NCBI GenBank assembly: GCA_963704155.1
Contig: CAVPHF010000041.1
Location: forward strand, 16,457 to 80,456
Length of the DNA: 64,000 nucleotides
Direction of reading: 5' to 3'
DNA from: an uncultured Gammaproteobacteria bacterium
GTDB lineage: Bacteria; Pseudomonadota; Gammaproteobacteria; Chromatiales; Chromatiaceae
The notes under the pieces are model-generated. The model did not search any database. It was not told the DNA's origin and worked only from the letters and a program-made list of their open reading frames with translations. Each line of letters opens with the position of its first letter. The first letter of the stretch is position 1. Below are positions 28,283-43,645 of the stretch, piece after piece. The position numbers were made by a program, and so were the translations under genes.

Positions 28283-28303
28283 TAGCCGCTAGCCGCTAGC
28301 CGC
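28283..28303. repeat. Tandem heptamer (TAGCCGC)x3 abutting the ppk2 stop codon
   Basis: cc-TAGCCGC-TAGCCGC-TAGCCGC-TAA read directly. A related GCCGCTAGGCGCTAGGAGCC lies about 35 nt upstream. Confidence 0.8.
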
Positions 28304-29268
28304 TAAACCGTAAATCGACCCTCGCGGAGCATCTGCGCTTCCATGATCTCGAGCTCGCGTGCACCGGACACCACAACCTGCGGATCGGGGACAAAGTCAA
28401 GCCCCGGGTCCAGGCGGTCATATGGCACGGCGTTGAGAATGACCTTAATCGCGTTCAATCGCGCCTTCATCTTGTTGTTGGAGCGGATGATGGTCCAGGG
28501 CGCCCAGGAGGTATGGGTCCGGCGCAACATCTCGTATTTCTGGTGCGTGAAGTCGTCCCATCGGTCCTGTGCCTGCACATCGATCTCGGAGAGTTTCCAT
28601 TGGCGCAGCGTATCGGTCTTACGGCGATCGAATCGTCTCGCCTGCTCGTCCTTGGTGACACTGAAGTAGAGCTTGACGAGAATCGTGCCTTGCCGAACAA
28701 GGTCCTTTTCGAAGCCCGTAACGCCATACATGAAGTTGTCATACTCTTCCTGCGTGCAGAAGCCGAACACGGGCTCCACCATGGCGCGGTTGTACCAGCT
28801 GCGGTCGAACAAGACCTGCTCACCCCCGTGCGGGAACTGCTCGACATAGCGCTGAAAGAACCATTGGGTGCGCTGGTGCTCCGTAGGCCGACCAAGCGCG
28901 ACGACGCGATAGTGCTTTTCATTCATGTAGCGCGTGACGCGACGAATCGTCCCGCCCTTGCCGGCGGCATCGCGCCCCTCGAACAGAATGATCATGCGCT
29001 TCTTAGTCGCCTCCAGGTGCTTCTGCATCCGGATCAACTCCGCCTGAAACGGCTTCAACGCCTGCTCGGCACGACGCTTGATCACGGCGCCGCGCGTCTC
29101 CTTCTTGACCTTCGCCAGCCGGCTGCGCATCTCGACATGTTCGGTCAGCAGTTGCTCCAGCGGCATGCGCTTGCCGTCTACCTGGACCCATTGGTCTGCC
29201 TGTTCTTCCGGGCCTTCCGCCCCTGATCGGTCGACCGACGCCTGGATGCGCTCTTGATCCGATGCCAT
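28303..29268 (-). CDS. ppk2: Polyphosphate kinase 2 (PPK2)
   Basis: Walker-A-like FEGRDAAGKGG, the DRSWYNR motif and a PPK2 lid region. The ATG at 29268 (MASDQERIQ...) is chosen because the track ORF extension to 29577 runs into the upstream MFS gene. Confidence 0.9.
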   Translation of the reverse strand: MASDQERIQASVDRSGAEGPEEQADQWVQVDGKRMPLEQLLTEHVEMRSRLAKVKKETRGAVIKRRAEQALKPFQAELIRMQKHLEATKKRMIILFEGRDAAGKGGTIRRVTRYMNEKHYRVVALGRPTEHQRTQWFFQRYVEQFPHGGEQVLFDRSWYNRAMVEPVFGFCTQEEYDNFMYGVTGFEKDLVRQGTILVKLYFSVTKDEQARRFDRRKTDTLRQWKLSEIDVQAQDRWDDFTHQKYEMLRRTHTSWAPWTIIRSNNKMKARLNAIKVILNAVPYDRLDPGLDFVPDPQVVVSGARELEIMEAQMLREGRFTV

Positions 29269-29344
29269 AAGTACCGCTCTCCGATAGGTTTGTTGCCCTG
29301 CGCATCGTACCACGGCAGGCATGCGCCGCCGGCAGCAGCAGAGC

Positions 29345-30505
29345 TCAGAATTGGCGGCCGCGGTCGACCTGGCGATAAACCGCGATCCAGCCCAAGGCCG
29401 CGGCTGCGGCGGCCGTAACGAAGGTTGCAGTGGCCCCGGCGCTCGACCAGAGCGCACCGCTGACCAGACTGCCGGCGGCCCCGCCGACACCGAAGCCAAC
29501 GCTGTTGTACAGTGCCTGTCCACGCCCCTGGGTGCGGCCGGGGAAGTAATGGTGCGCCAAGTGGATGGCGGCGGCATGAAAGCTGCCGAAGCTCGCCGCG
29601 TGCAGGCTTTGCGCCAGGATCTGAACCGCGGGCAGCTTGATAAAGAACCCGATCAGCAGCCAGCGAACCACCGCCAAGGCGAGGCTGATCAGCAGCATCC
29701 GACGGGCACCGAAGCGCTCGAGCAGCCAATGCATGCGCAGAAAGACAATGACCTCGATCGTGACACCCAGTGCCCATAAGGCGCCGACAGCGGTGCTGCT
29801 GTAGCCGTTGGACTCCAGATAGATCGAATAGAAGGCGTAATAGGCGCCATGGCTCGCCTGCATCAGCAGACAGGCGACGAGGAAGTAGATGATCTCCGGG
29901 CGGCGGAGCAGACCGCGCAGCGAGAGCTGGACCGGATGCGTGCCGTCCTGGTCGCGGTCAGGGATCAGCAGACAGCTCACCCAAACGCCAACGAACAGCA
30001 CCAGCACCACGGCGGGAACGACCTGCCTGCCGGACGGTCCGGCGCCATCGCTGGCCTGGTCGAGCCACCAGCCGATAATGCCGACGCTCAAAATGAATCC
30101 GACGCTGCCCCAGACCCGCACGCTGGCATAGCGGTTGGCGCGTGCGCCAAGGTGATTGAAGGTCACCGACTCCATCAGCGGCAGCGGCGCATTCCAGAAA
30201 AAGCTGAACGCCGCCATTACCAGCGCCATGGACCAGAACCCCTCGGCCCAGAACACGCCGGCGAAACAGACAACGGCCAACGCCGAGCCCAGACGCACAA
30301 TCGGCATACGTCGGCCGGCACGGTCGGCGAGCAGGCCCCAAACGTTGGGCGCGACGATCTTGGTGCCCATCAAGATGGCCATCAGCACCCCGATAGCGGC
30401 CGGCGCGAAGCCCCGCTCCAACAGGTAGGGCCCCCAGAACGGCACCAACGCACCGAGCGCGCCGAAATGGAAGAAGTAGTAGCTGGAGAGTCGAGCGTAG
30501 GGCAT
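29345..30505 (-). CDS. MFS transporter (PPP/HcaT-like family)
   Basis: 12-TM MFS protein. Its N-terminus, RLSSYYFFHFGALGALVPFWGPYLLERGF, resembles the HcaT/MFS_1_like family. Confidence 0.8.
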   Translation of the reverse strand: MPYARLSSYYFFHFGALGALVPFWGPYLLERGFAPAAIGVLMAILMGTKIVAPNVWGLLADRAGRRMPIVRLGSALAVVCFAGVFWAEGFWSMALVMAAFSFFWNAPLPLMESVTFNHLGARANRYASVRVWGSVGFILSVGIIGWWLDQASDGAGPSGRQVVPAVVLVLFVGVWVSCLLIPDRDQDGTHPVQLSLRGLLRRPEIIYFLVACLLMQASHGAYYAFYSIYLESNGYSSTAVGALWALGVTIEVIVFLRMHWLLERFGARRMLLISLALAVVRWLLIGFFIKLPAVQILAQSLHAASFGSFHAAAIHLAHHYFPGRTQGRGQALYNSVGFGVGGAAGSLVSGALWSSAGATATFVTAAAAAALGWIAVYRQVDRGRQF

Positions 30506-35380: not shown

Positions 35381-35536
35381 CTGACACCTACCCAGATGAT
35401 CGGGGCGAATCACATGGCCGAACCACAAGCCGCGGGCGACCCCAGCAGAAGGAACGGCGCCCTCGGCGCGGGGATGCAAGCGTCAGCCATGCATCCGTCA
35501 GGCCGCGGTGGGGGCGCCGCTGCTGCGAGCAACGCC

Positions 35537-36643
35537 ATGCCGTCGAGCCCTCGACCGACGGGGCGCATCGTCCAAAGCGCATTCAAACCGGCGTGGTGGC
35601 TGCCCGGCGCCCACCTGCAAACCATCGGGCCGACGCTGGCCCGGCCGCGGCCGCAACCGGCGTTGATCCGCCGCCGGATCGAACTCGCCGATGGCGACTT
35701 CATCGACCTCGCGGTCGGCGATAGCGACGGCGAGCGCGTGCTGATCGTGCATGGACTCGAGGGCGACCTGAACTCGCACTATGCGGGCTCGCTGGTCGGG
35801 CGACTCGCCAGAGAGGGCTTCCGGCCGGTGTTCATGCATCTGCGCGGGTGCAGCGGCGAGCCGAACCGGCTCGATCGCTCCTATCACTCCGGCGCCAGCG
35901 AAGATCTCGCCGAAGTCTTATCGGCGCTGGCCGCCGATCCTGAGGGGCCGCCGGCGGCGGCCGTCGGCTTCTCGCTCGGCGCCAATCTGCTGCTGAAATA
36001 CCTTGGCGAGCGCGACCAGCCGCTGCTCCGCCATGCACTGGCGGTGTCGGTCCCCTTCGTGCTGCGCGACGCCATGCTGCGCCTCGACATCGGGCTGTCG
36101 CGTGTCTACCGGCGTTATCTGATCACGCGTCTGAAGGCGGCCTATGAGCACAAATTTAGCGCTCGGCCATCGCCGCTCGAGGTCGAACTCGATGCGATCA
36201 ATGGCTTCAACGCCTTCGACGACCGCATCACAGCCCCCTTGAGCGGCTTCGCCGGCGTCTATGATTACTACAACCGGGCCAGCTGCCGCCAGTTTCTGCC
36301 AAGCATCCGCACACCGACTCTGATCATCCAGGCACTGGATGATCCCTTCATGTTCCCGAGCACGGTGCCCTTCGAGCACGAACTCGGCCCGGGCGTGACG
36401 CTGGAGCTGGCGCGCCGCGGCGGCCATGTCGGCTTCATCGCCGGCCATCTCCCCTGGCGACCGCGGTACTGGCTGGAGGAGCGCATCATCGCGCATCTGC
36501 GCGACGCCATCCCAGCGCGGACGGTCGCGCTCGCACCGACCGCTGAGCCGGCCGCCGAACCAATGGCCGAATTGGCCGCCCAGCCGGTCTCCGCCGTTCA
36601 GGCGCCGAGCGCCGAGCGCAGCTCCGCCCACAGCAAGCGATAG
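35537..36643 (+). CDS. Alpha/beta hydrolase, YheT-like
   Basis: Collinear similarity to E. coli YheT (FKPAWWLPGAHLQTIGP, VHGLEGDLNSHY, MHLRGCSGEPNR..YHSG, GFSLGAN). The ATG at 35537 is chosen by alignment logic. The Ala/Pro-rich C-terminal tail overlaps the parA-like 3' end. Confidence 0.8.
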   Translation: MPSSPRPTGRIVQSAFKPAWWLPGAHLQTIGPTLARPRPQPALIRRRIELADGDFIDLAVGDSDGERVLIVHGLEGDLNSHYAGSLVGRLAREGFRPVFMHLRGCSGEPNRLDRSYHSGASEDLAEVLSALAADPEGPPAAAVGFSLGANLLLKYLGERDQPLLRHALAVSVPFVLRDAMLRLDIGLSRVYRRYLITRLKAAYEHKFSARPSPLEVELDAINGFNAFDDRITAPLSGFAGVYDYYNRASCRQFLPSIRTPTLIIQALDDPFMFPSTVPFEHELGPGVTLELARRGGHVGFIAGHLPWRPRYWLEERIIAHLRDAIPARTVALAPTAEPAAEPMAELAAQPVSAVQAPSAERSSAHSKR

Positions 36644-37347
36644 GCAGCCGACGCGGGATCGGACGGCGCGTAGGCCGGCAGCGGCATCCGGTGCAGGCCC
36701 ATGCGCTCCACCTCCGGCGCTAGCGGGACCACCGAATCCAACAACTGTGGATACTCGCCGGCAAGCCGTTGCATGGTCTCGGTGTGCAGAACGCGATCGC
36801 AATCGACCATCGAGAAGAACGGCAGGATGCGCAACTTGCCGTGACCATCGTCTGCCGTCAGAAAGTCGCTCAGCTGGGCCAGCGTCCGAGCCGACAGCGT
36901 GCTCGGGATCAGCGGTACGAGCAGGGCGTGGGCCGCGCGGAAGACATTCTCGGACATCAGCGAGATGCTGGGCGGGCAGTCGAGGAAGACCAGGTCGTAT
37001 TCCCGGCGTAGCGGTTTCAGTAGCCGCTCGAGCTGGCGCACCGGTTTCTTTTCGCCCTCCAGCAGAATATCCATGTTGCGGTAAGAGAAGTCCGCCGGCA
37101 GCAGGTCCAGCAGCTCGAAATCGGTCCCCTTGATGACGTCGTCGAGTTCGCGCCGGCCGCTCAGCAGTGCCCGACCTCCGCCCTTCACCTTGGGCCTGAC
37201 GCGAAAGTAGTAGCTGGTCGCGCCCTGGGGATCGAGATCCCAGACCAGCGTGCGGTTACCGGCCGCGGCCGACAGATAGGCCAAATTGACCGCGGTCGAG
37301 GTCTTACCGACGCCGCCCTTGATGCTGTAGACACCGACGATCTTCAA
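36598..37347 (-). CDS. ParA/MinD-family ATPase (orphan ParA-like)
   Basis: Deviant Walker A KIVGVYSIKGGVGKTS with a ParA-like fold through 249 aa. The TTG start overlaps the stop of the upstream CHAD gene (TTGA at 37344-37347). Confidence 0.88.
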   Translation of the reverse strand: MKIVGVYSIKGGVGKTSTAVNLAYLSAAAGNRTLVWDLDPQGATSYYFRVRPKVKGGGRALLSGRRELDDVIKGTDFELLDLLPADFSYRNMDILLEGEKKPVRQLERLLKPLRREYDLVFLDCPPSISLMSENVFRAAHALLVPLIPSTLSARTLAQLSDFLTADDGHGKLRILPFFSMVDCDRVLHTETMQRLAGEYPQLLDSVVPLAPEVERMGLHRMPLPAYAPSDPASAAYRLLWAELRSALGA

Positions 37348-39137
37348 TTGACCGCCTCCTTGCCAGACACATCGATGGGCGGCGACATCACCCGCTGCCT
37401 GTCGCCGGCGCCGCCGCTCGCGGCCCCACTGCCGTTGTCGGAAGCCCCGACAGAAGCGGCATCGCCACCGGCCTTGAATAAGGCTCGAAAGCGTTTGCCG
37501 TTGGCCTTGTTGTCGAAGCCGGCGAAGATCTGCGCGAACTCCCGACGCGCCTGCTCCTGCCCCTGCAACAGATTGCTGGTGAGTGCCCCCATCGCCAACA
37601 GCACACCGGTATTGGCGGCATGCTCCGCACGCATGAGTTCGGCTGTCTCGCGCAAGTGATTGGCCTGGACCTCCAGATCCTGAAAACCGCCCAGGTTCTC
37701 GAGCAGCAGCTTGGTCTGCTTGATCAACGCGCGCACCTCGTCAGCCGGATACAGGCTTTGGAAGAACTCCATCATGTAGCGCAGTTTCTTGCAGCTCTTG
37801 CGCAGCTCGTGAAGAGCTTCGGCCGGCGATGCGTCATTAATGCAGCGGCCTTCCTCGAGCAGACGCTTGAATAATCGCCAAATGCGCTGATCCGCGAGCG
37901 CCTTGATAGGCAAGGCGGCATGCGGTTCGGCCGTCGCGCGGGGCAGCGGCGACTCGAGGAAGGCCCGCCAGTCGCGCATCAGAGACCCGAACCGGGGCGA
38001 GTCCAGTGCCTCCACCAAGCGGCGCTGCTCACCGTCGTAGTGAGCGCTAAGCCAGGCGCGCAAAGGCTCCAGATCGTCGCGCATGGCAGGGGGCAAACGA
38101 CCGCGGAGCGACGGAAAACCGAGTAGATGCACATCCAGGTCGCGCACTGGCCCGGTAATCTGCTGGATCCAGGCGAACCCGGCCTTGAAGTCCTCGACGA
38201 TACGCGGTGCGAAGACACCCTTGATTTGACTCAGCGCCGAGCGCGTGCGCCGCGTGGCAACACGCAGATCGTGCAGGAATTCCGGGTCCAGGTTGCGGCG
38301 GCTGCCGTCGATATTCGCCTCCAGGGTATCCAGCAGACCGAGCAGGATACCCTTGGTGGCGGCATCGGCCCGCTGGCTCGGGTCGAGCTGATAGTCGAGC
38401 TGCGATGAGTAGGTCCCCGGTCGCCGACCGGTCGCGGCAAGCGCCTCCAGCACCAGCGGCGCCTGTTCCGGCTCGAGCGTCAGGACCTCGGACAAGGCCG
38501 AGGCCGTCGCGGCAAGCTCGGCATCATAGCCGCGGACCGGCAGCAACAGCAGACGTGCGGGCAGCGCGTCCTGTCGTCCGCGGGCGACCACAGCCAGCGT
38601 ATTGTGCTCGACGACGATCCGCGCGACCGTCTTATCGTCCTCGTTGAGCACACGTAAAGTCTGCGAGCGCGTATCGATCTCCACCATCGGCAGCAGCCGG
38701 CGGATGCCGAGGACTGGGGCCAGCAATTGCTGCACCGCACCAGGCGGCAGCTCGCTAGCGAAGCCCGGGTCGCTGGAGATCGCCTGACGGGCGAGCGCGG
38801 CGCCCTGATTGGCAAGATCGAGCCAAATCAGCTCGCGAACGGCTTGTTGACTGAGGTCTGGTCCCCGATTTGAATCCAGATCCGGACCCTGGTGCGGAGT
38901 TTGGTCGAGGCCGGGTTGCTGGCCGAGCCGCAGCCCGGCCGGCGGCACATGCCCATCGGCACAATCCTCCAGCGCGGCCCCCGCGTGGTACAGACTCCAA
39001 TCGAAGCTATCGAGGAACCGCCGCCGCGACGCGACTGAAGGGTCAAGTTCGCAGTGCAGACGGCTACGGATACTGGCCAGGGTAGACGCCGCATCGGCGC
39101 CCCGCGGCAGCAGAAAACTCATCGGGCCGGTGATCAT
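37344..39137 (-). CDS. CHAD domain protein with an N-terminal CYTH-like region
   Basis: 597 aa. The central/C-terminal part is helical with conserved His/Arg motifs typical of CHAD (FLHDLRVATRRTRSAL, LHELRKSCKKLRYMMEFF). The N-terminal ~200 aa has the size and position of the CYTH-like module seen in many CHAD proteins, but no EXEXK was recognised. Confidence 0.75.
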   Translation of the reverse strand: MITGPMSFLLPRGADAASTLASIRSRLHCELDPSVASRRRFLDSFDWSLYHAGAALEDCADGHVPPAGLRLGQQPGLDQTPHQGPDLDSNRGPDLSQQAVRELIWLDLANQGAALARQAISSDPGFASELPPGAVQQLLAPVLGIRRLLPMVEIDTRSQTLRVLNEDDKTVARIVVEHNTLAVVARGRQDALPARLLLLPVRGYDAELAATASALSEVLTLEPEQAPLVLEALAATGRRPGTYSSQLDYQLDPSQRADAATKGILLGLLDTLEANIDGSRRNLDPEFLHDLRVATRRTRSALSQIKGVFAPRIVEDFKAGFAWIQQITGPVRDLDVHLLGFPSLRGRLPPAMRDDLEPLRAWLSAHYDGEQRRLVEALDSPRFGSLMRDWRAFLESPLPRATAEPHAALPIKALADQRIWRLFKRLLEEGRCINDASPAEALHELRKSCKKLRYMMEFFQSLYPADEVRALIKQTKLLLENLGGFQDLEVQANHLRETAELMRAEHAANTGVLLAMGALTSNLLQGQEQARREFAQIFAGFDNKANGKRFRALFKAGGDAASVGASDNGSGAASGGAGDRQRVMSPPIDVSGKEAVN

Positions 39138-40951: not shown

Positions 40952-43645
40952 GTGAGACGCTCGCTTGGCATCCTCATTCCGCTGCTGATCGCATTGCTGA
41001 CAATCGCCCTGTGGGCGATGTTGAACCGCCCGACGGTCGAGCCGCCCTGGCCGACGCGCATCCAGGGCTACTCGTTTTCGCCGATGCGCGCCGACGATGA
41101 CCCGACCCGACAGATCTATCCCTCGATCAGCGAGGTCGATGAAGACCTCGCCCTGCTGCACGGCGAAGCGCACGCGATCCGGACCTACACGCTCGACGGC
41201 CCCATGCAGCAGGTGCCGCGACTGGCAGCCGCGCATGGGCTCAATGTCACGCTCGGCGCCTGGATCGGCCCGGAGGCGGACGATAACCAGGCCGAACTCG
41301 AGCGGCTGACCGCGATCCTGCGCCAGTGGAATAAGAACATCGTGCGTGTCATGGTCGGCAACGAGACCATTCTGCGCGGCGATGTCTCGGTTAAGGAGCT
41401 CGGCGGCTACTTGGATCGCATCCGCCGCATCACCGATATCCCGGTCGGCACCGCGGAGCCTTGGCACATCTGGCTCACCAACCCGGGCCTGGCAAAGCAC
41501 GTCGACTTCATCGCCGTGCATCTGCTGCCTTACTGGGAGGGTCTGCCGATCGACAAGGCCGTGGACTTCTCGTTCGAGAAGCTCGAGCTGGTGCGCGAGG
41601 CCTTTCCGGGCAAGGAAGTCATCGTCGGCGAGGTCGGCTGGCCGAGCAACGGCCGGCGCAATCGCGGCGCCGAGGCGAATCAGGCCAACCAAAGCACCTT
41701 CCTGCGGCGTTTCCTGGCGCGCGCCGAGGCCGAAGGACTCACCTACTATGTGATGGAGGCATTCGACCAACCCTGGAAGGTCAAGATCGAGGGCGGCATC
41801 GGCTCTTACTGGGGCATCTACAATGCCGAGCGTGACCCTAAACTGACACTGACCCAGCCGGTCGTGCGCATCCCGGACTGGCAGGAACTGGCCGCGTTAT
41901 CGGTCGGTATGGCGGTGCTGCTGCTGGTGCTGTTGTATCGGGACAGCGCCACGCTGTCGTCATCAGGAAAGGGCTTCCTGGCGCTAATAACCTATGCCCT
42001 TTCGACCGCGGCGGTCTGGCTGGTATATGACTACACACGCCAGTACATGACGCCGGCCACCGCCATCGTCGGCGTGCTGCTGCTGATCGGCGGTTTCGGC
42101 GTTTTGGTGCTACTCTCGGCGGAGGCGCACGAGTGGGCAGAGTCCCTTTGGCTGAAGCGCTGGCGCCGCGCCTTCCCCCGCCACGATGTGCCGGACGCAT
42201 GGCTGCCGATGGTATCGGTGCAGGTTCCGGCCTACAACGAGCCGCCGGAATTGCTGATCGAAACGTTGGACGCCTTGGCGACGCTCGACTACCCGAGCTT
42301 CGAGGTCCTGGTTATCGACAACAACACCAAGGACCCGGCCGTCTGGCAGCCGGTGCGCGACCACTGTGAGCTGCTGAACAGCCGGCACCCCGGCCGGTTC
42401 CGCTTCTTTCACGTCGAACCGCTGGCCGGATTCAAGGCCGGCGCGCTGAACTTCGCGCTGCGTGAGACCGACCCGCGTGCCGGCATCGTCGCCGTCATTG
42501 ATGCCGACTACATCGTTACGCGGCGCTGGCTGCGAGACCTGGTACCGGCCTTCCTCGATGACGAGGTCGGCATCGTGCAGGCACCGCAGGACTACCGCGA
42601 CGGCCACGAGAGCATGTTCAAGGCCATGTGTCTCGCCGAGTACCGCGGCTTCTTCCACATCGGCATGGTCACCCGCAACGAGCGCAACGCCATCATCCAG
42701 CATGGCACCATGACCATGATCCGGCGCAAGCCCTTGGATGAGGTCAACGGCTGGGCCGAATGGTGCATCACCGAGGACGCGGAACTCGGCCTGCGCCTGT
42801 TCGAGACGGGCTACAAGGCGCTCTACATCCCGGCTACCTATGGCCGCGGACTGATGCCGGACACCTTCGCCGACTTCAAGAAGCAGCGCCTGCGCTGGGC
42901 CTATGGCGCAGTGCGTATCCTGCTCGCACACCGGCGCGAGCTGCTCGGGCTGCGTCGCACCAAGCTGGATGCCGGCCAGCGCTGGCACTTTCTGGCCGGC
43001 TGGCTGCCCTGGTACGCGGACGGCTTTAACCTGTTGTTCAATTTTGCCGCGCTCGCCTGGAGCGTCGCAATGGTCGCGGCGCCAGACATCATCACACCGC
43101 CTTACATCACCATCGCGCTGATCCCTTTGGTGCTGTTCGCGTTCAAGATGATCAAGAGCCTGGCGCTCTACCGGCGCCGGGTTGCCGCAACCTGGCGCCA
43201 GAGTTTCGGTGCCGGCCTGGCCGGGCTGGCGCTGTCACACACCATCGCGCGCGCTATGTGGGCGGGTGTCGTCTCCGGCCGGCTCGGTTTCTTCCGTACA
43301 CCGAAGCTCGCCGGCACCAGCACGCTGCTCCGGGTGCTCGGCGACGCGCGCGAGGAAGTATTGCTGATGCTCGCGTTCTGGCTCGGCGCCTTTGCGGTCC
43401 TGCAGCGCGAAGACGCCTATATGCTCGACGTCCGGGTCTGGGCCGCGGTGCTGCTGGTGCAGTCGGTGCCCTACTTCGCGTCGCTGGTGATGTCGTTGAT
43501 CAGCGCCATGCCTCGGCTGCCGGCAAGCCTGATAGGACCGCTGGCGGAGATGGAGGACGGAGCCCGGCCCGCCGATACGACGCCCAGCGCCGCTCGCGCA
43601 TCCGCGAACATCTCCCCCTCGGCCGCGCGCACCGCGGACAGCTGA
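40952..43645 (+). CDS. ndvB: NdvB-like bifunctional GH17 glycoside hydrolase / GT2 beta-glucan synthase
   Basis: 897 aa with a GTG start after GGGAG. The N-terminus has a TM helix and a GH17-like TIM barrel (VMVGNETIL, GEVGWPSNG). After several TM helices comes a processive GT2 domain (VQVPAYNEP, VIDADY, QRLRW) and more TM helices. P. aeruginosa/Bradyrhizobium NdvB has the same architecture. Confidence 0.8.
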   Translation: MRRSLGILIPLLIALLTIALWAMLNRPTVEPPWPTRIQGYSFSPMRADDDPTRQIYPSISEVDEDLALLHGEAHAIRTYTLDGPMQQVPRLAAAHGLNVTLGAWIGPEADDNQAELERLTAILRQWNKNIVRVMVGNETILRGDVSVKELGGYLDRIRRITDIPVGTAEPWHIWLTNPGLAKHVDFIAVHLLPYWEGLPIDKAVDFSFEKLELVREAFPGKEVIVGEVGWPSNGRRNRGAEANQANQSTFLRRFLARAEAEGLTYYVMEAFDQPWKVKIEGGIGSYWGIYNAERDPKLTLTQPVVRIPDWQELAALSVGMAVLLLVLLYRDSATLSSSGKGFLALITYALSTAAVWLVYDYTRQYMTPATAIVGVLLLIGGFGVLVLLSAEAHEWAESLWLKRWRRAFPRHDVPDAWLPMVSVQVPAYNEPPELLIETLDALATLDYPSFEVLVIDNNTKDPAVWQPVRDHCELLNSRHPGRFRFFHVEPLAGFKAGALNFALRETDPRAGIVAVIDADYIVTRRWLRDLVPAFLDDEVGIVQAPQDYRDGHESMFKAMCLAEYRGFFHIGMVTRNERNAIIQHGTMTMIRRKPLDEVNGWAEWCITEDAELGLRLFETGYKALYIPATYGRGLMPDTFADFKKQRLRWAYGAVRILLAHRRELLGLRRTKLDAGQRWHFLAGWLPWYADGFNLLFNFAALAWSVAMVAAPDIITPPYITIALIPLVLFAFKMIKSLALYRRRVAATWRQSFGAGLAGLALSHTIARAMWAGVVSGRLGFFRTPKLAGTSTLLRVLGDAREEVLLMLAFWLGAFAVLQREDAYMLDVRVWAAVLLVQSVPYFASLVMSLISAMPRLPASLIGPLAEMEDGARPADTTPSAARASANISPSAARTADS

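What the first reader, a model, noticed from the sequence alone, without database searches (positions are those of the whole stretch)
36598..39137. CYTH/CHAD protein translationally coupled to an orphan ParA ATPase: candidate polyphosphate-granule positioning module
The CHAD gene stop and the ParA-like TTG start overlap (TTGA), implying co-expression at fixed stoichiometry. CHAD domains are known to bind polyphosphate and localise to polyP granules. ParA/MinD ATPases position large cytoplasmic cargos (plasmids, carboxysomes, chemoreceptor arrays) through a cargo-bound partner. A CHAD protein would be a natural adaptor linking polyP granules to a ParA gradient. I am not aware of such a system being described. 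A PPK2 gene lies 8 kb away in the same window.
Basis: inference. Interest (0 to 1): 0.65.

Follow-up and report, generated by a model that had tools for sequence, protein, structure and literature searches.

The report
CHAD–ParA polyphosphate granule module
A polyphosphate-binding CHAD protein and its own ParA-type ATPase form a translationally coupled gene pair conserved in at least 13 bacterial phyla and often next to polyphosphate kinase, which makes it the best available candidate for an ATP-driven system that positions polyphosphate granules, something not yet described.

Summary
A 597-aa CHAD gene (37344-39137, minus) ends in TTGA, which overlaps the TTG start of a 249-aa ParA/Soj-like ATPase gene (36598-37347). 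An AAGGAGG ribosome-binding site lies 7 nt upstream of that start.

The pairing is not local:
- Anchored on the ParA subfamily, 163 of 186 species-level loci with enough upstream DNA carry the same CHAD gene immediately upstream, mostly with 4-nt or 1-nt overlaps.
- Anchored on the CHAD motif, 71-85% carry this ParA immediately downstream.
- The pair occurs in at least 13 phyla.

PPK1 recurs beside the module, and in Methylophaga it takes the CHAD gene's place upstream of the ParA.

The crystallised polyP-binding CtCHAD of Chlorobaculum belongs to this family and sits in a ppk1-orf-CHAD-parA cluster. All six of its polyP-contact residues are invariant in the family.

The N-terminal domain has a CYTH fold but has lost the catalytic motifs. 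No conserved basic ParA-stimulating peptide was found. The PPK2 gene about 7 kb away is not part of the module.

Reviews from 2024-2026 name no ParA for polyP granules. Only the gene adjacency in Acidithiobacillus had been noted, and it was read differently.

Function is inferred from gene context. No localisation or biochemical data exist.

The parts
37344..39137 (-). Gene for the 597-aa CYTH-like/CHAD protein, the proposed polyP-granule adaptor
   Evidence: ORF. Pfam CHAD E 1.4e-60. AF2 model pLDDT 84. Foldseek matches CtCHAD+polyP (6qva) at TMt 0.93 and the N-terminal domain to TTM/CYTH folds.
38388..39137 (-). N-terminal domain (about residues 1-250): degenerate CYTH/triphosphate-tunnel fold, predicted catalytically inactive
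   Evidence: Foldseek hits to ygiF, ThTPase and SaTTM at E 1e-9 to 1e-3. BLASTP alignment to L158, a Pfam-positive CYTH-CHAD protein, at E 2e-25, with the ExExK, RxR and ExE positions replaced. No Pfam CYTH hit. Family-invariant residues are D43, F45, W47, R146, K169, R173, G203 and Y204.
38850..38939 (-). Disordered insertion (residues 67-96) inside the CYTH-like domain; absent from most orthologues, though a few carry inserts at the same site
   Evidence: pLDDT below 50. The segment is a gap in most rows of alignment A1; L009, L074 and the Microthrixaceae-type rows have shorter or longer inserts there.
37470..38372 (-). Long-type CHAD domain (residues 256-556) with an invariant polyP-contact set
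   Evidence: phmmer to CtCHAD (3e0s/6qv7) over residues 243-554, E 1e-48. H289, R292, R296, R332, R453 and Y454 are invariant. They map onto CtCHAD His253, Arg256, Arg260, Arg296, Arg418 and Tyr419, whose mutation lowers polyP binding (PMC6537752).
37347..37469 (-). Disordered C-terminal tail (residues 557-597); holds the ParA ribosome-binding site at the DNA level
   Evidence: pLDDT 30-42. Tails in orthologues are short (median 9 aa), variable and only weakly basic.
37355..37361 (-). Shine-Dalgarno AAGGAGG for the ParA gene, inside the CHAD coding sequence, 7 nt before the TTG
   Evidence: Sequence read directly.
37344..37347 (-). TTGA overlap: TTG start of ParA and TGA stop of the CHAD gene
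   Evidence: Sequence. An NTGA overlap is found in 56 of 78 orthologous pairs and a 1-nt overlap in 14.
36598..37347 (-). Gene for the 249-aa ParA/Soj-like ATPase, a dedicated subfamily
   Evidence: Pfam AAA_31/CbiA. No NCBIfam model reaches its cut-off. Closest solved relatives are chromosomal ParA/Soj (8ray E 8e-34 by profile; TM 0.79). Subfamily alignment has 67% mean column identity across phyla.
37300..37320 (-). Deviant Walker A KGGVGKT (residues 10-16) with signature lysine K10
   Evidence: Invariant K10, G11, G12, G14, K15 and T16. Also D37 and D39 (Walker A') and D123 (Walker B).
37174..37206 (-). Subfamily-specific basic loop FRVRPKVKGGG (residues 48-58; consensus FRVKPKVKGGG), a candidate polyanion or partner contact
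   Evidence: F48 and R49 invariant, K55/G56/G57 nearly invariant. Low pLDDT suggests a flexible loop. A role in binding is inference.

Best explanation
The two genes form a self-contained bicistronic module that couples polyphosphate (polyP) granules to a ParA-type ATPase.

Proposed mechanism:
- The CHAD protein coats the granule through its basic CHAD surface.
- Its degenerate CYTH domain no longer hydrolyses anything. It serves as a binding or adaptor surface, either for a polyP chain end or for the ATPase.
- The ParA-like protein binds ATP, dimerises and attaches to a cellular matrix, most likely the nucleoid.
- Granule-bound CHAD protein stimulates its ATPase locally. Granules then move up ParA gradients, stay spaced apart, and are shared between daughter cells, as McdAB does for carboxysomes.

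Shown here: the gene pair, its coupling, its conservation, its link with ppk1, intact ATPase motifs, conserved polyP-contact residues, and transcription of both genes in nature.

Inferred: the physical interaction of the two proteins, the matrix, and positioning as the output.
For: 1. Coupling. TTGA overlap with AAGGAGG upstream. 70 of 78 orthologous junctions overlap by 4 or 1 nt. A metatranscriptome contig at 37292-37635 spans the junction with no mismatch.

2. Conservation anchored on ParA. 78/80 loci and 89/111 loci with room. After removing 4 duplicate contigs this is 163/186.

3. Conservation anchored on the CHAD motif. 89/105 loci with room have the ParA downstream; among newly fetched loci alone, 39/55.

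4. Breadth. Alpha- and Gammaproteobacteria, Desulfobacterota-type lineages, Actinomycetota, Acidobacteriota, Chlorobiota, Rhodothermales, Planctomycetota, Chloroflexota, Dormibacterota, Dadabacteria, Poribacteria, Latescibacterota and KSB1. Flanking genes differ between clades.

5. Links to polyP enzymes.
- Methylophaga has PPK1 directly upstream of the ParA with a 2-nt spacer.
- PPK1-CHAD-ParA occurs in L078 and L182. CHAD-ParA-PPK1 occurs in L120.
- Chlorobaculum has ppk1-orf273-CHAD-ParA.
- PPK1 lies within 19 of 285 held loci and PPK2 within 10.
- Acidithiobacillus has folD-ppk-parA-CYTH/CHAD (PMC6416229, PMC10892726).
- Paracoccus has CHAD-ParA-CYTH-NUDIX-CYTH.

6. Cargo binding. CtCHAD, an orthologue, binds polyP with KD 147 nM and 1.9 uM and was crystallised with polyP (PMC6537752). 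Its six contact residues are invariant in this family.

7. ATPase. Walker A, A' and B residues are invariant. The fold is ParA/Soj-like. It is not a known equivalog.
Against: - There is no experimental evidence for an interaction, for ATPase stimulation or for any effect on granules.
- No conserved basic N- or C-terminal peptide of the kind that stimulates other ParA ATPases was found.
- The arginine equivalent to Soj R189, used for non-specific DNA binding, is present in the subfamily consensus (VDRRK). It is replaced in the window protein (VDCDR) and in its closest relatives. Nucleoid binding is therefore uncertain here.
- About 12% of ParA-subfamily loci and 15-29% of CHAD-family loci lack the adjacent partner.
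- Deletion of other CHAD proteins in Ralstonia and of E. coli ygiF gave no obvious phenotype (PMC6537752 discussion).
- The ParA model is only moderately confident: pLDDT 76, and low over residues 45-110.
Confidence: 0.6

Rival explanations
1. The ATPase acts on polyP granules or on polyP synthesis, but as an ATP-dependent switch or assembly factor rather than a spacing motor. It might control where or when granules nucleate, recruit or release PPK1 or the CHAD coat, or anchor granules at a pole. BcsQ, FlhG/FleN and MipZ work this way for their targets.
For: In Methylophaga, PPK1 rather than CHAD precedes the ParA, which suggests a link to the synthase itself. No ParB- or McdB-like basic peptide was found. 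BcsQ, FleN and MinD are also structural neighbours. Polar polyP granules exist in some species (PMC13052382).
Against: By sequence and fold the nearest relatives are chromosomal ParA/Soj proteins, which work by gradients on the nucleoid. No C-terminal membrane-targeting helix follows the conserved core. The 1:1 coupled expression with a granule-coat protein fits a cargo-adaptor pair.
Confidence: 0.2
2. The roles are reversed: polyP is the matrix and not the cargo. ParA-ATP binds the polyanionic granule through its conserved basic loop, and the CHAD protein regulates that binding. The granule then serves to organise something else, such as the chromosome or proteins, during starvation.
For: The lysine-rich loop FRVKPKVKGGG is conserved and specific to the subfamily. 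The Soj-R189-equivalent arginine is lost in the window clade. PolyP is reported to influence nucleoid structure (PMC13556221, PMC11894788).
Against: No data show ParA proteins binding polyP. No third cargo gene is conserved beside the pair.
Confidence: 0.1
3. The operon is enzymatic or signalling. The CYTH-CHAD protein is a class IV adenylate cyclase or tri/polyphosphatase, and parA links it to cell division. This is how the Acidithiobacillus cluster was read.
For: The published interpretation of the Acidithiobacillus folD-ppk-parA-CYTH/CHAD cluster, where active-site residues are reported as conserved (PMC6416229). L158 has a Pfam-positive CYTH domain.
Against: In the window family the first strand reads SFLLP in place of ExExK. 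The RxR and ExE positions seen in L158 are replaced. Pfam CYTH is not matched in the window protein or in the precomputed domains of the 120 listed homologues. This reading does not explain the need for a dedicated, very highly conserved ParA.
Confidence: 0.04
4. The ATPase is an ordinary DNA-partition ParA, of a chromosome, plasmid or mobile element, that merely happens to lie beside a CHAD gene.
For: ParA/Soj-like fold. Sources annotate it as a chromosome partitioning protein. Some copies lie on secondary replicons.
Against: No ParB or centromere-binding gene lies nearby. The neighbours are housekeeping genes that differ by clade. Typical plasmid ParAs are at most 39% identical, and the 44-50% identical hits on large secondary replicons that were inspected again sit beside CHAD where an upstream gene could be seen. 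The pairing is conserved in at least 13 phyla.
Confidence: 0.03

Closest known systems
McdA/McdB carboxysome positioning system
   Same: A small ParA-type ATPase encoded beside a cargo-bound adaptor, with no ParB or centromere. The proposed logic is the same: the adaptor on the cargo stimulates matrix-bound ATPase, which gives even spacing and inheritance of a large cytoplasmic body.
   Different: The cargo would be an inorganic polymer granule. The adaptor is a folded 520-600-aa CYTH-like/CHAD protein, not a small, largely disordered McdB. No basic stimulatory peptide was found. The ATPase keeps the signature lysine and is closer to Soj than to McdA (McdA E about 1e-13 against ParA 8ray E 8e-34).
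ParABS (Soj/Spo0J) chromosome and plasmid partition
   Same: The closest sequence and structural relatives (8ray, 1wcv/2bek, 6iub). Deviant Walker A and Walker A'/B motifs are intact.
   Different: No ParB or parS. The partner is a polyP-binding protein. About 25-29% identity to Soj-type ATPases in the structural alignments. A subfamily-specific basic loop is present. No NCBIfam partition model reaches its cut-off.
CHAD 'phosins' (R. eutropha PptA/PptB; CtCHAD of Chlorobaculum tepidum, PDB 3e0s/6qv7/6qva)
   Same: The same domain, of the long type. CtCHAD is a family member: E 1e-48, TMt 0.93, 35% identity in the structural alignment, and a 522-aa architecture with an N-terminal domain. The polyP-contact residues are invariant.
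   Different: Phosins have been treated as stand-alone granule-surface proteins of unknown function. The dedicated downstream ParA, which is also present behind the CtCHAD gene, has not been discussed in what I could read.
AlgP-dependent spacing of polyP granules in Pseudomonas aeruginosa
   Same: [quoted passage not shown]
   Different: AlgP is a histone H1-like DNA-binding tether with no ATPase. Reviews state that it is unknown whether energy is spent on polyP positioning (PMC13052382).
E. coli YgiF (CYTH/TTM-CHAD tripolyphosphatase)
   Same: The same two-domain order, CYTH fold followed by CHAD (Foldseek 5a60, E 5e-9).
   Different: YgiF has an active TTM and a short CHAD (PMC6537752); that it has no ParA partner is from my own knowledge and was not checked here. 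The window protein has a long CHAD and a CYTH domain that has lost the catalytic motifs.
Acidithiobacillus folD-ppk-parA-CYTH/CHAD cluster ('ACAci operon')
   Same: The same kinds of genes lie side by side, with ppk1 (PMC6416229, PMC10892726).
   Different: It was interpreted as cAMP signalling or copper resistance, with parA described as a plasmid or chromosome partition gene. The CYTH is reported to be catalytically intact there. I could not fetch the locus to confirm that its parA belongs to this subfamily.

Membership tests
ParA/MinD (deviant Walker A) ATPase family | Deviant Walker A KGGxxK[ST] with the N-terminal signature lysine | tested here: met
   IKGGVGKT; K10, G11, G12, G14, K15 and T16 are invariant in 29 sequences from several phyla.
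ParA/MinD (deviant Walker A) ATPase family | Walker A' (DxD) and Walker B aspartates | tested here: met
   D37 and D39 in WDLDPQ, and D123 in FLDCPP, are invariant.
ParA/MinD (deviant Walker A) ATPase family | ParA/Soj/MinD fold | tested here: met
   AF2 model pTM 0.79. Foldseek TM 0.75-0.79 to ParA 8ray and Soj 2bek/6iub. MinD, FleN, BcsQ and McdA also match.
ParA/MinD (deviant Walker A) ATPase family | ATP-dependent dimerisation and binding to a matrix (nucleoid or membrane) | tested here: inconclusive
   No C-terminal amphipathic extension beyond the core. The Soj R189-equivalent Arg is present in the consensus VDRRK but replaced in the window protein, VDCDR. The biochemistry cannot be tested here.
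ParABS DNA partition system | Adjacent ParB/centromere-binding partner gene | tested here: not met
   The upstream gene is the CHAD protein. The other neighbours are an alpha/beta hydrolase and transaldolase. No ParB was seen in related loci.
ParA-adaptor cargo positioning systems (McdAB-like) | Dedicated adaptor encoded next to the ATPase and bound to the cargo | tested here: met
   Adjacency and coupling are conserved in 163/186 loci. The adaptor orthologue CtCHAD binds polyP (PMC6537752). Binding of the adaptor to ParA is not tested.
ParA-adaptor cargo positioning systems (McdAB-like) | Positively charged terminal peptide on the adaptor that stimulates the ATPase | tested here: not met
   The N-terminus is not basic and not conserved. 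C-terminal tails have a median of 9 aa and are variable; net charge is positive in 75, zero in 31 and negative in 33 of 139.
CHAD domain (phosin) family | Pfam PF05235 match above the gathering score | tested here: met
   205.5 bits against a cut-off of 25.6, E 1.4e-60.
CHAD domain (phosin) family | Two four-helix bundles with conserved basic polyP-contact residues | tested here: met
   TMt 0.93 to 6qva. H289, R292, R296, R332, R453 and Y454 are invariant and map onto the mutated CtCHAD contacts.
CHAD domain (phosin) family | Binding to polyP and localisation on granules | not testable with these tools
   Shown for the orthologue CtCHAD in vitro and for other CHAD proteins in vivo (PMC6537752). 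Not shown for this protein.
CYTH / triphosphate tunnel metalloenzymes | Eight-stranded tunnel fold | tested here: met
   Foldseek hits to ygiF, ThTPase, SaTTM and class IV cyclases. Alignment to the Pfam-positive CYTH of L158.
CYTH / triphosphate tunnel metalloenzymes | ExExK motif on strand 1 and the acidic/basic catalytic set | tested here: not met
   Strand 1 reads SFLLP, and DFQLP, RFAVD and similar in orthologues. The RxR and ExE positions of L158 are replaced. No Pfam CYTH hit.

The most novel reading that the evidence does not exclude
This would be a widespread ATP-driven ParA system, found in at least 13 phyla, whose cargo is an inorganic polymer granule. A CHAD coat protein with a catalytically dead CYTH domain would serve as the adaptor. 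It would be the first known energy-consuming positioning and segregation machinery for polyphosphate granules, and the first physiological role assigned to a large class of CHAD 'phosins'. The crystallised CtCHAD would turn out to be half of such a machine.
Probability: 0.5. Interest if true: 0.82.

Novelty: new variant of a known kind. Interest (0 to 1): 0.72.

Why it matters
How bacteria space and inherit polyphosphate granules is an open question. Two recent reviews and a 2026 study say that the proteins responsible are unidentified in most species. They also say it is unknown whether ATP is spent on the process (PMC13052382, PMC11407121, PMC13556221).

The physiological role of CHAD proteins is also undefined (PMC6537752).

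This module offers a concrete two-gene candidate that can be tested. It is present in cultured organisms, some of them genetically tractable: Chlorobaculum, Sedimenticola, Paracoccus, Rhodothalassium, Prauserella, and reportedly Acidithiobacillus. A structure of the adaptor's CHAD domain is already solved.

It would add a new cargo and a new class of adaptor to the ParA/MinD family. It is also relevant to polyP-accumulating organisms, since relatives of Microthrix and sulfur oxidisers carry it.

Tried and rejected
- **Pfam CYTH and NCBIfam on the CHAD protein.** No hit. Fold search and alignment to a genuine CYTH-CHAD protein resolved the N-terminal domain instead.
- **Basic ParA-stimulating peptide.** The N-terminus is not conserved or basic. 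C-terminal tails are short, variable and only weakly basic. Rejected as a family feature.
- **A conserved third gene.** Clustering ORFs from 80 loci found only clade-specific neighbours: PepN, transaldolase, ABC transporter, rRNA dimethylase, GGDEF-EAL. ParA-only loci share no alternative partner apart from PPK1 in Methylophaga.
- **Window PPK2 as part of the module.** Five unrelated genes separate them. PPK2 was seen in only 10 of 285 loci. Not treated as part of the module.
- **Plasmid-partition origin.** Rejected.
- **Promoter and terminator scan.** Uninformative.
- **RNA evidence.** Only metatranscriptome contigs were available. They carry no strand information and could include DNA, so they are supportive and not decisive.
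- **Tumlirsch & Jendrossek 2017.** The paper could not be read because it is not held.

Full report
**1. The observation**

On the minus strand, a 597-codon ORF (37344-39137) is followed by a 249-codon ORF (36598-37347) that starts with TTG. Plus-strand bases 37344-37347 read tcaa, which is TTGA on the coding strand. The TTG start and the TGA stop therefore overlap.

Pfam places a CHAD domain at residues 264-496 of the first protein (E 1.4e-60). It assigns the second protein to the ParA/MinD-type P-loop families AAA_31 and CbiA (E 8e-32).

The TTG start is credible for two reasons. First, AAGGAGG lies 7 nt upstream of it, inside the CHAD reading frame. Second, in 183 orthologues the aligned first codon is a start codon: 142 ATG, 34 GTG and 7 TTG.

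Contigs from two salt-marsh metatranscriptomes cover both genes. One 344-nt contig (37292-37635, no mismatch) crosses the junction. This fits co-transcription, with a caveat: such contigs are unstranded and could contain DNA.

**2. The two proteins**

*The CHAD protein.* The AlphaFold model has mean pLDDT 84 and contains two domains.

Residues from about 256 to 556 superpose on the crystal structure of the Chlorobium/Chlorobaculum tepidum CHAD domain bound to polyphosphate (6qva; TMt 0.93, 35% identity). By sequence the match covers residues 243-554 at E 1e-48.

The residues whose mutation weakens polyP binding in CtCHAD are His253, Arg256, Arg260, Arg296 and Arg418/Tyr419 (PMC6537752). They map to H289, R292, R296, R332, R453 and Y454. 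All six are invariant in both family alignments.

Residues 1 to about 250 have a CYTH/triphosphate-tunnel fold, with Foldseek hits to ygiF, thiamine triphosphatase, archaeal TTM and class IV cyclases. They also align with a relative whose N-terminal domain does match Pfam CYTH (L158). However, the first strand lacks ExExK: it reads SFLLP here, and orthologues are similar. The RxR and ExE positions are also replaced. Pfam CYTH matches neither the window protein nor any of the 120 listed homologues.

Two segments are disordered: an insertion at residues 67-96 that most orthologues lack, and the tail at residues 559-597.

*The ATPase.* It keeps every catalytic hallmark of the ParA/MinD family. 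The deviant Walker A with signature lysine (K10, K15), Walker A' (D37, D39) and Walker B (D123) are all invariant.

Its nearest solved relatives are chromosomal ParA/Soj proteins (8ray by profile E 8e-34; TM about 0.78). Plasmid ParAs, MinD, FleN, BcsQ and McdA are more distant. No NCBIfam model reaches its cut-off.

The subfamily is unusually conserved, with 67% mean column identity between Gammaproteobacteria and Actinomycetota. It carries its own basic loop, FRVKPKVKGGG, and has no C-terminal membrane-targeting extension.

**3. Conservation of the pair**

*Starting from the ParA.*
- 78 of the 80 closest species-level loci have the same CYTH-like/CHAD gene directly upstream on the same strand. 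One exception is cut by a contig end.
- Among those 78 junctions, 56 overlap by 4 nt (NTGA), 14 overlap by 1 nt, and the others are within 18 nt.
- A DNA pattern built from two subfamily-invariant motifs (WDLDPQ ... All scored as subfamily members. Of these, 89 have the CHAD gene adjacent upstream, 9 have no room, and 22 lack it.
- Removing four duplicated contigs gives 163 of 186 loci, or 88%.

*Starting from the CHAD family.* A pattern for EFLHDxRVAxRRxR was used. 89 of 105 loci with room have the ParA directly downstream. Counting only loci not held before, the figure is 39 of 55.

*Taxonomic breadth.* The pair occurs in:
- Alpha- and Gammaproteobacteria
- Desulfobacterota-type lineages (Trichloromonas, Desulfobulbus, Desulfocapsaceae, Desulfosarcina, Deferrisomatales)
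- Actinomycetota (Acidimicrobiia including Microthrixaceae, Mycobacterium sp., Prauserella, Streptosporangiaceae, Solirubrobacterales)
- Acidobacteriota, Chlorobiaceae, Rhodothermales, Planctomycetota, Chloroflexota, Dormibacterota, Dadabacteria, Poribacteria, Latescibacterota and KSB1

*Other points.*
- The degenerate N-terminal domain alone finds 556 clusters (50% identity) at E<=1e-10 and 1,420 at E<=1e-3 among 1.84 billion representatives. Most are 510-560 aa long.
- Flanking genes differ from clade to clade: transaldolase, PepN, ABC transporter, rRNA dimethylase and others. The unit is therefore the two-gene cassette itself.
- In Methylococcales both genes exist but are mostly unlinked.

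**4. Independent links to polyphosphate**

- In Methylophaga the gene directly upstream of this ParA, with a 2-nt spacer, is ppk1 and not CHAD.
- PPK1-CHAD-ParA occurs in a Pseudomonadales MAG and in Trichloromonas. CHAD-ParA-PPK1 occurs in a Chromatiales MAG. PPK1 is divergent or convergent neighbour in a delta-proteobacterial MAG and an Acidobacteriota MAG.
- PPK1 lies within 19 of the 285 short loci held, and PPK2 within 10. With about one ppk1 per genome, fewer than one would be expected by chance (my estimate).
- A Paracoccus marcusii replicon carries CHAD-ParA-CYTH-NUDIX-CYTH.
- In L158 a SixA-like phosphatase gene sits between CHAD and ParA.

The most useful case is CtCHAD, the crystallised polyP binder. 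It is the C-terminal part of a 522-aa protein. In all six Chlorobaculum/Chlorobiaceae loci fetched, its gene lies in the order ppk1, a 273-aa ORF, CYTH-like/CHAD, then this ParA. In L206 (98% identical to the PDB sequence) the spacer before the ParA is 2 nt.

By contrast, the window's own PPK2 (28303-29577) is separated from the pair by five unrelated genes. That arrangement is seen only in close relatives. It is not part of the module.

**5. Mechanism**

The best reading is a cargo-adaptor/ParA system for polyP granules. The CHAD surface binds the granule. The ParA-ATP dimer binds a matrix, probably the nucleoid. Granule-bound adaptor triggers ATP hydrolysis, which gives spacing and inheritance by a diffusion-ratchet, as in McdAB.

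The parts that are shown are the genetics and the conservation. The rest is inference.

Three points count against a simple copy of known systems:
- No conserved basic stimulatory peptide is present.
- The arginine equivalent to Soj R189 is present in the family consensus but replaced in the window clade.
- The adaptor is a large folded protein.

The conserved, family-specific but catalytically dead CYTH domain is the obvious candidate for the ParA contact, or for holding a polyP chain end. That is speculation.

Rivals, in order of likelihood:
- A regulatory or anchoring ATPase for granule biogenesis or for PPK1, rather than a spacing motor.
- PolyP as the matrix and not the cargo.
- An enzymatic or cAMP operon.
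- An ordinary DNA-partition ParA.

The last two are poorly supported. The catalytic motifs are lost. No ParB is present. Typical plasmid ParAs are at most 39% identical, and closer hits on secondary replicons again sit beside CHAD where the upstream gene could be seen.

**6. What is known**

- Full-text searches found no paper that proposes or shows a ParA-type ATPase for polyP granules.
- The 2024 ParA/MinD review does not mention polyP as a cargo.
- A 2025 review of organelle positioning lists only AlgP and chromosome dependence for polyP. It says it remains to be seen whether energy is needed.
- A 2026 cyanobacterial study says the mechanism is undefined in E. coli and Caulobacter and is ParA-independent in Synechococcus.
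- The adjacency of parA with a CYTH-CHAD gene and ppk was drawn for Acidithiobacillus in 2019 and 2024. It was read as a class IV adenylate cyclase operon, or with parA as a plasmid-partition gene.

So the adjacency is not entirely unseen. Its breadth, its coupling and the positioning interpretation appear to be new.

**7. Verdict**

This is a real, strongly conserved two-gene module. It is a new variant of a known kind of system: ParA with a cargo adaptor, here with a new cargo and a new class of adaptor. Function is unproven. Confidence in the positioning model is about 0.6. Confidence that the module acts on polyP granules in some way is higher.

Noticed in passing
window 40952-43645 (+): An 897-aa protein combines a weak GH17-like N-terminal match (below Pfam's cut-off) with a family-2 glycosyltransferase domain. 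The architecture resembles beta-glucan synthases of the NdvB type. That comparison is from memory and was not tested.
   Followed up: no
window 36598-36643: The 3' ends of the ParA gene (minus strand) and of the convergent alpha/beta-hydrolase gene (35396-36643, plus strand) overlap by 46 nt, so there is no room for a terminator between them.
   Followed up: no
L083 3642-6487; L111; L149: In Methylophaga, ppk1 takes the place of the CHAD gene directly upstream of the ParA-subfamily gene, with a 2-nt spacer in L083. This suggests the ATPase can be coupled to the polyP synthase itself.
   Followed up: partly
L206 153-5694 (Chlorobiales MAG, 98% identical to the PDB CtCHAD sequence): The gene for the crystallised CtCHAD protein lies in a ppk1 / 273-aa ORF with no Pfam match / CYTH-like-CHAD / ParA cluster. 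Two metallophosphoesterase-like genes follow in convergent orientation.
   Followed up: partly
L208 4473-8249 (Paracoccus marcusii plasmid NZ_CP157012.1): An extended operon: CHAD, ParA-like ATPase, CYTH protein, NUDIX protein, second CYTH protein. Here separate, presumably active, CYTH proteins accompany the pair.
   Followed up: no
L158 2228-5315: A variant order: a Pfam-positive CYTH-CHAD gene, then a His_Phos_1 (SixA-like) gene, then the ParA.
   Followed up: no
L055, L101, L119, L153, L201 (ParA only); L223, L228, L234 (CHAD only): In Methylococcales both family genes exist but are usually unlinked, although L098 and L192 keep the pair. An MgtE-type Mg2+ transporter gene lies downstream of the ParA in L055 (Pfam-confirmed), and ORFs that cluster with it lie downstream in L101 and L201.
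   Followed up: partly
L044 and L165 (same MAG, HKST-UBA178): Two separate CHAD-ParA pairs lie on different contigs of one genome bin, so paralogous modules may coexist.
   Followed up: no
P0252 (3373 aa): A very long protein matches residues 193-252 of the CYTH-like domain in 17 separate stretches. This is an unexplained repeat protein.
   Followed up: no
L034, L035, L038, L039, L049, L086, L156 (Microthrixaceae): Relatives of the wastewater polyP accumulator Microthrix carry the pair. Their ParA is about 60% identical to the gammaproteobacterial one, which is striking conservation across phyla or a sign of horizontal transfer.
   Followed up: no
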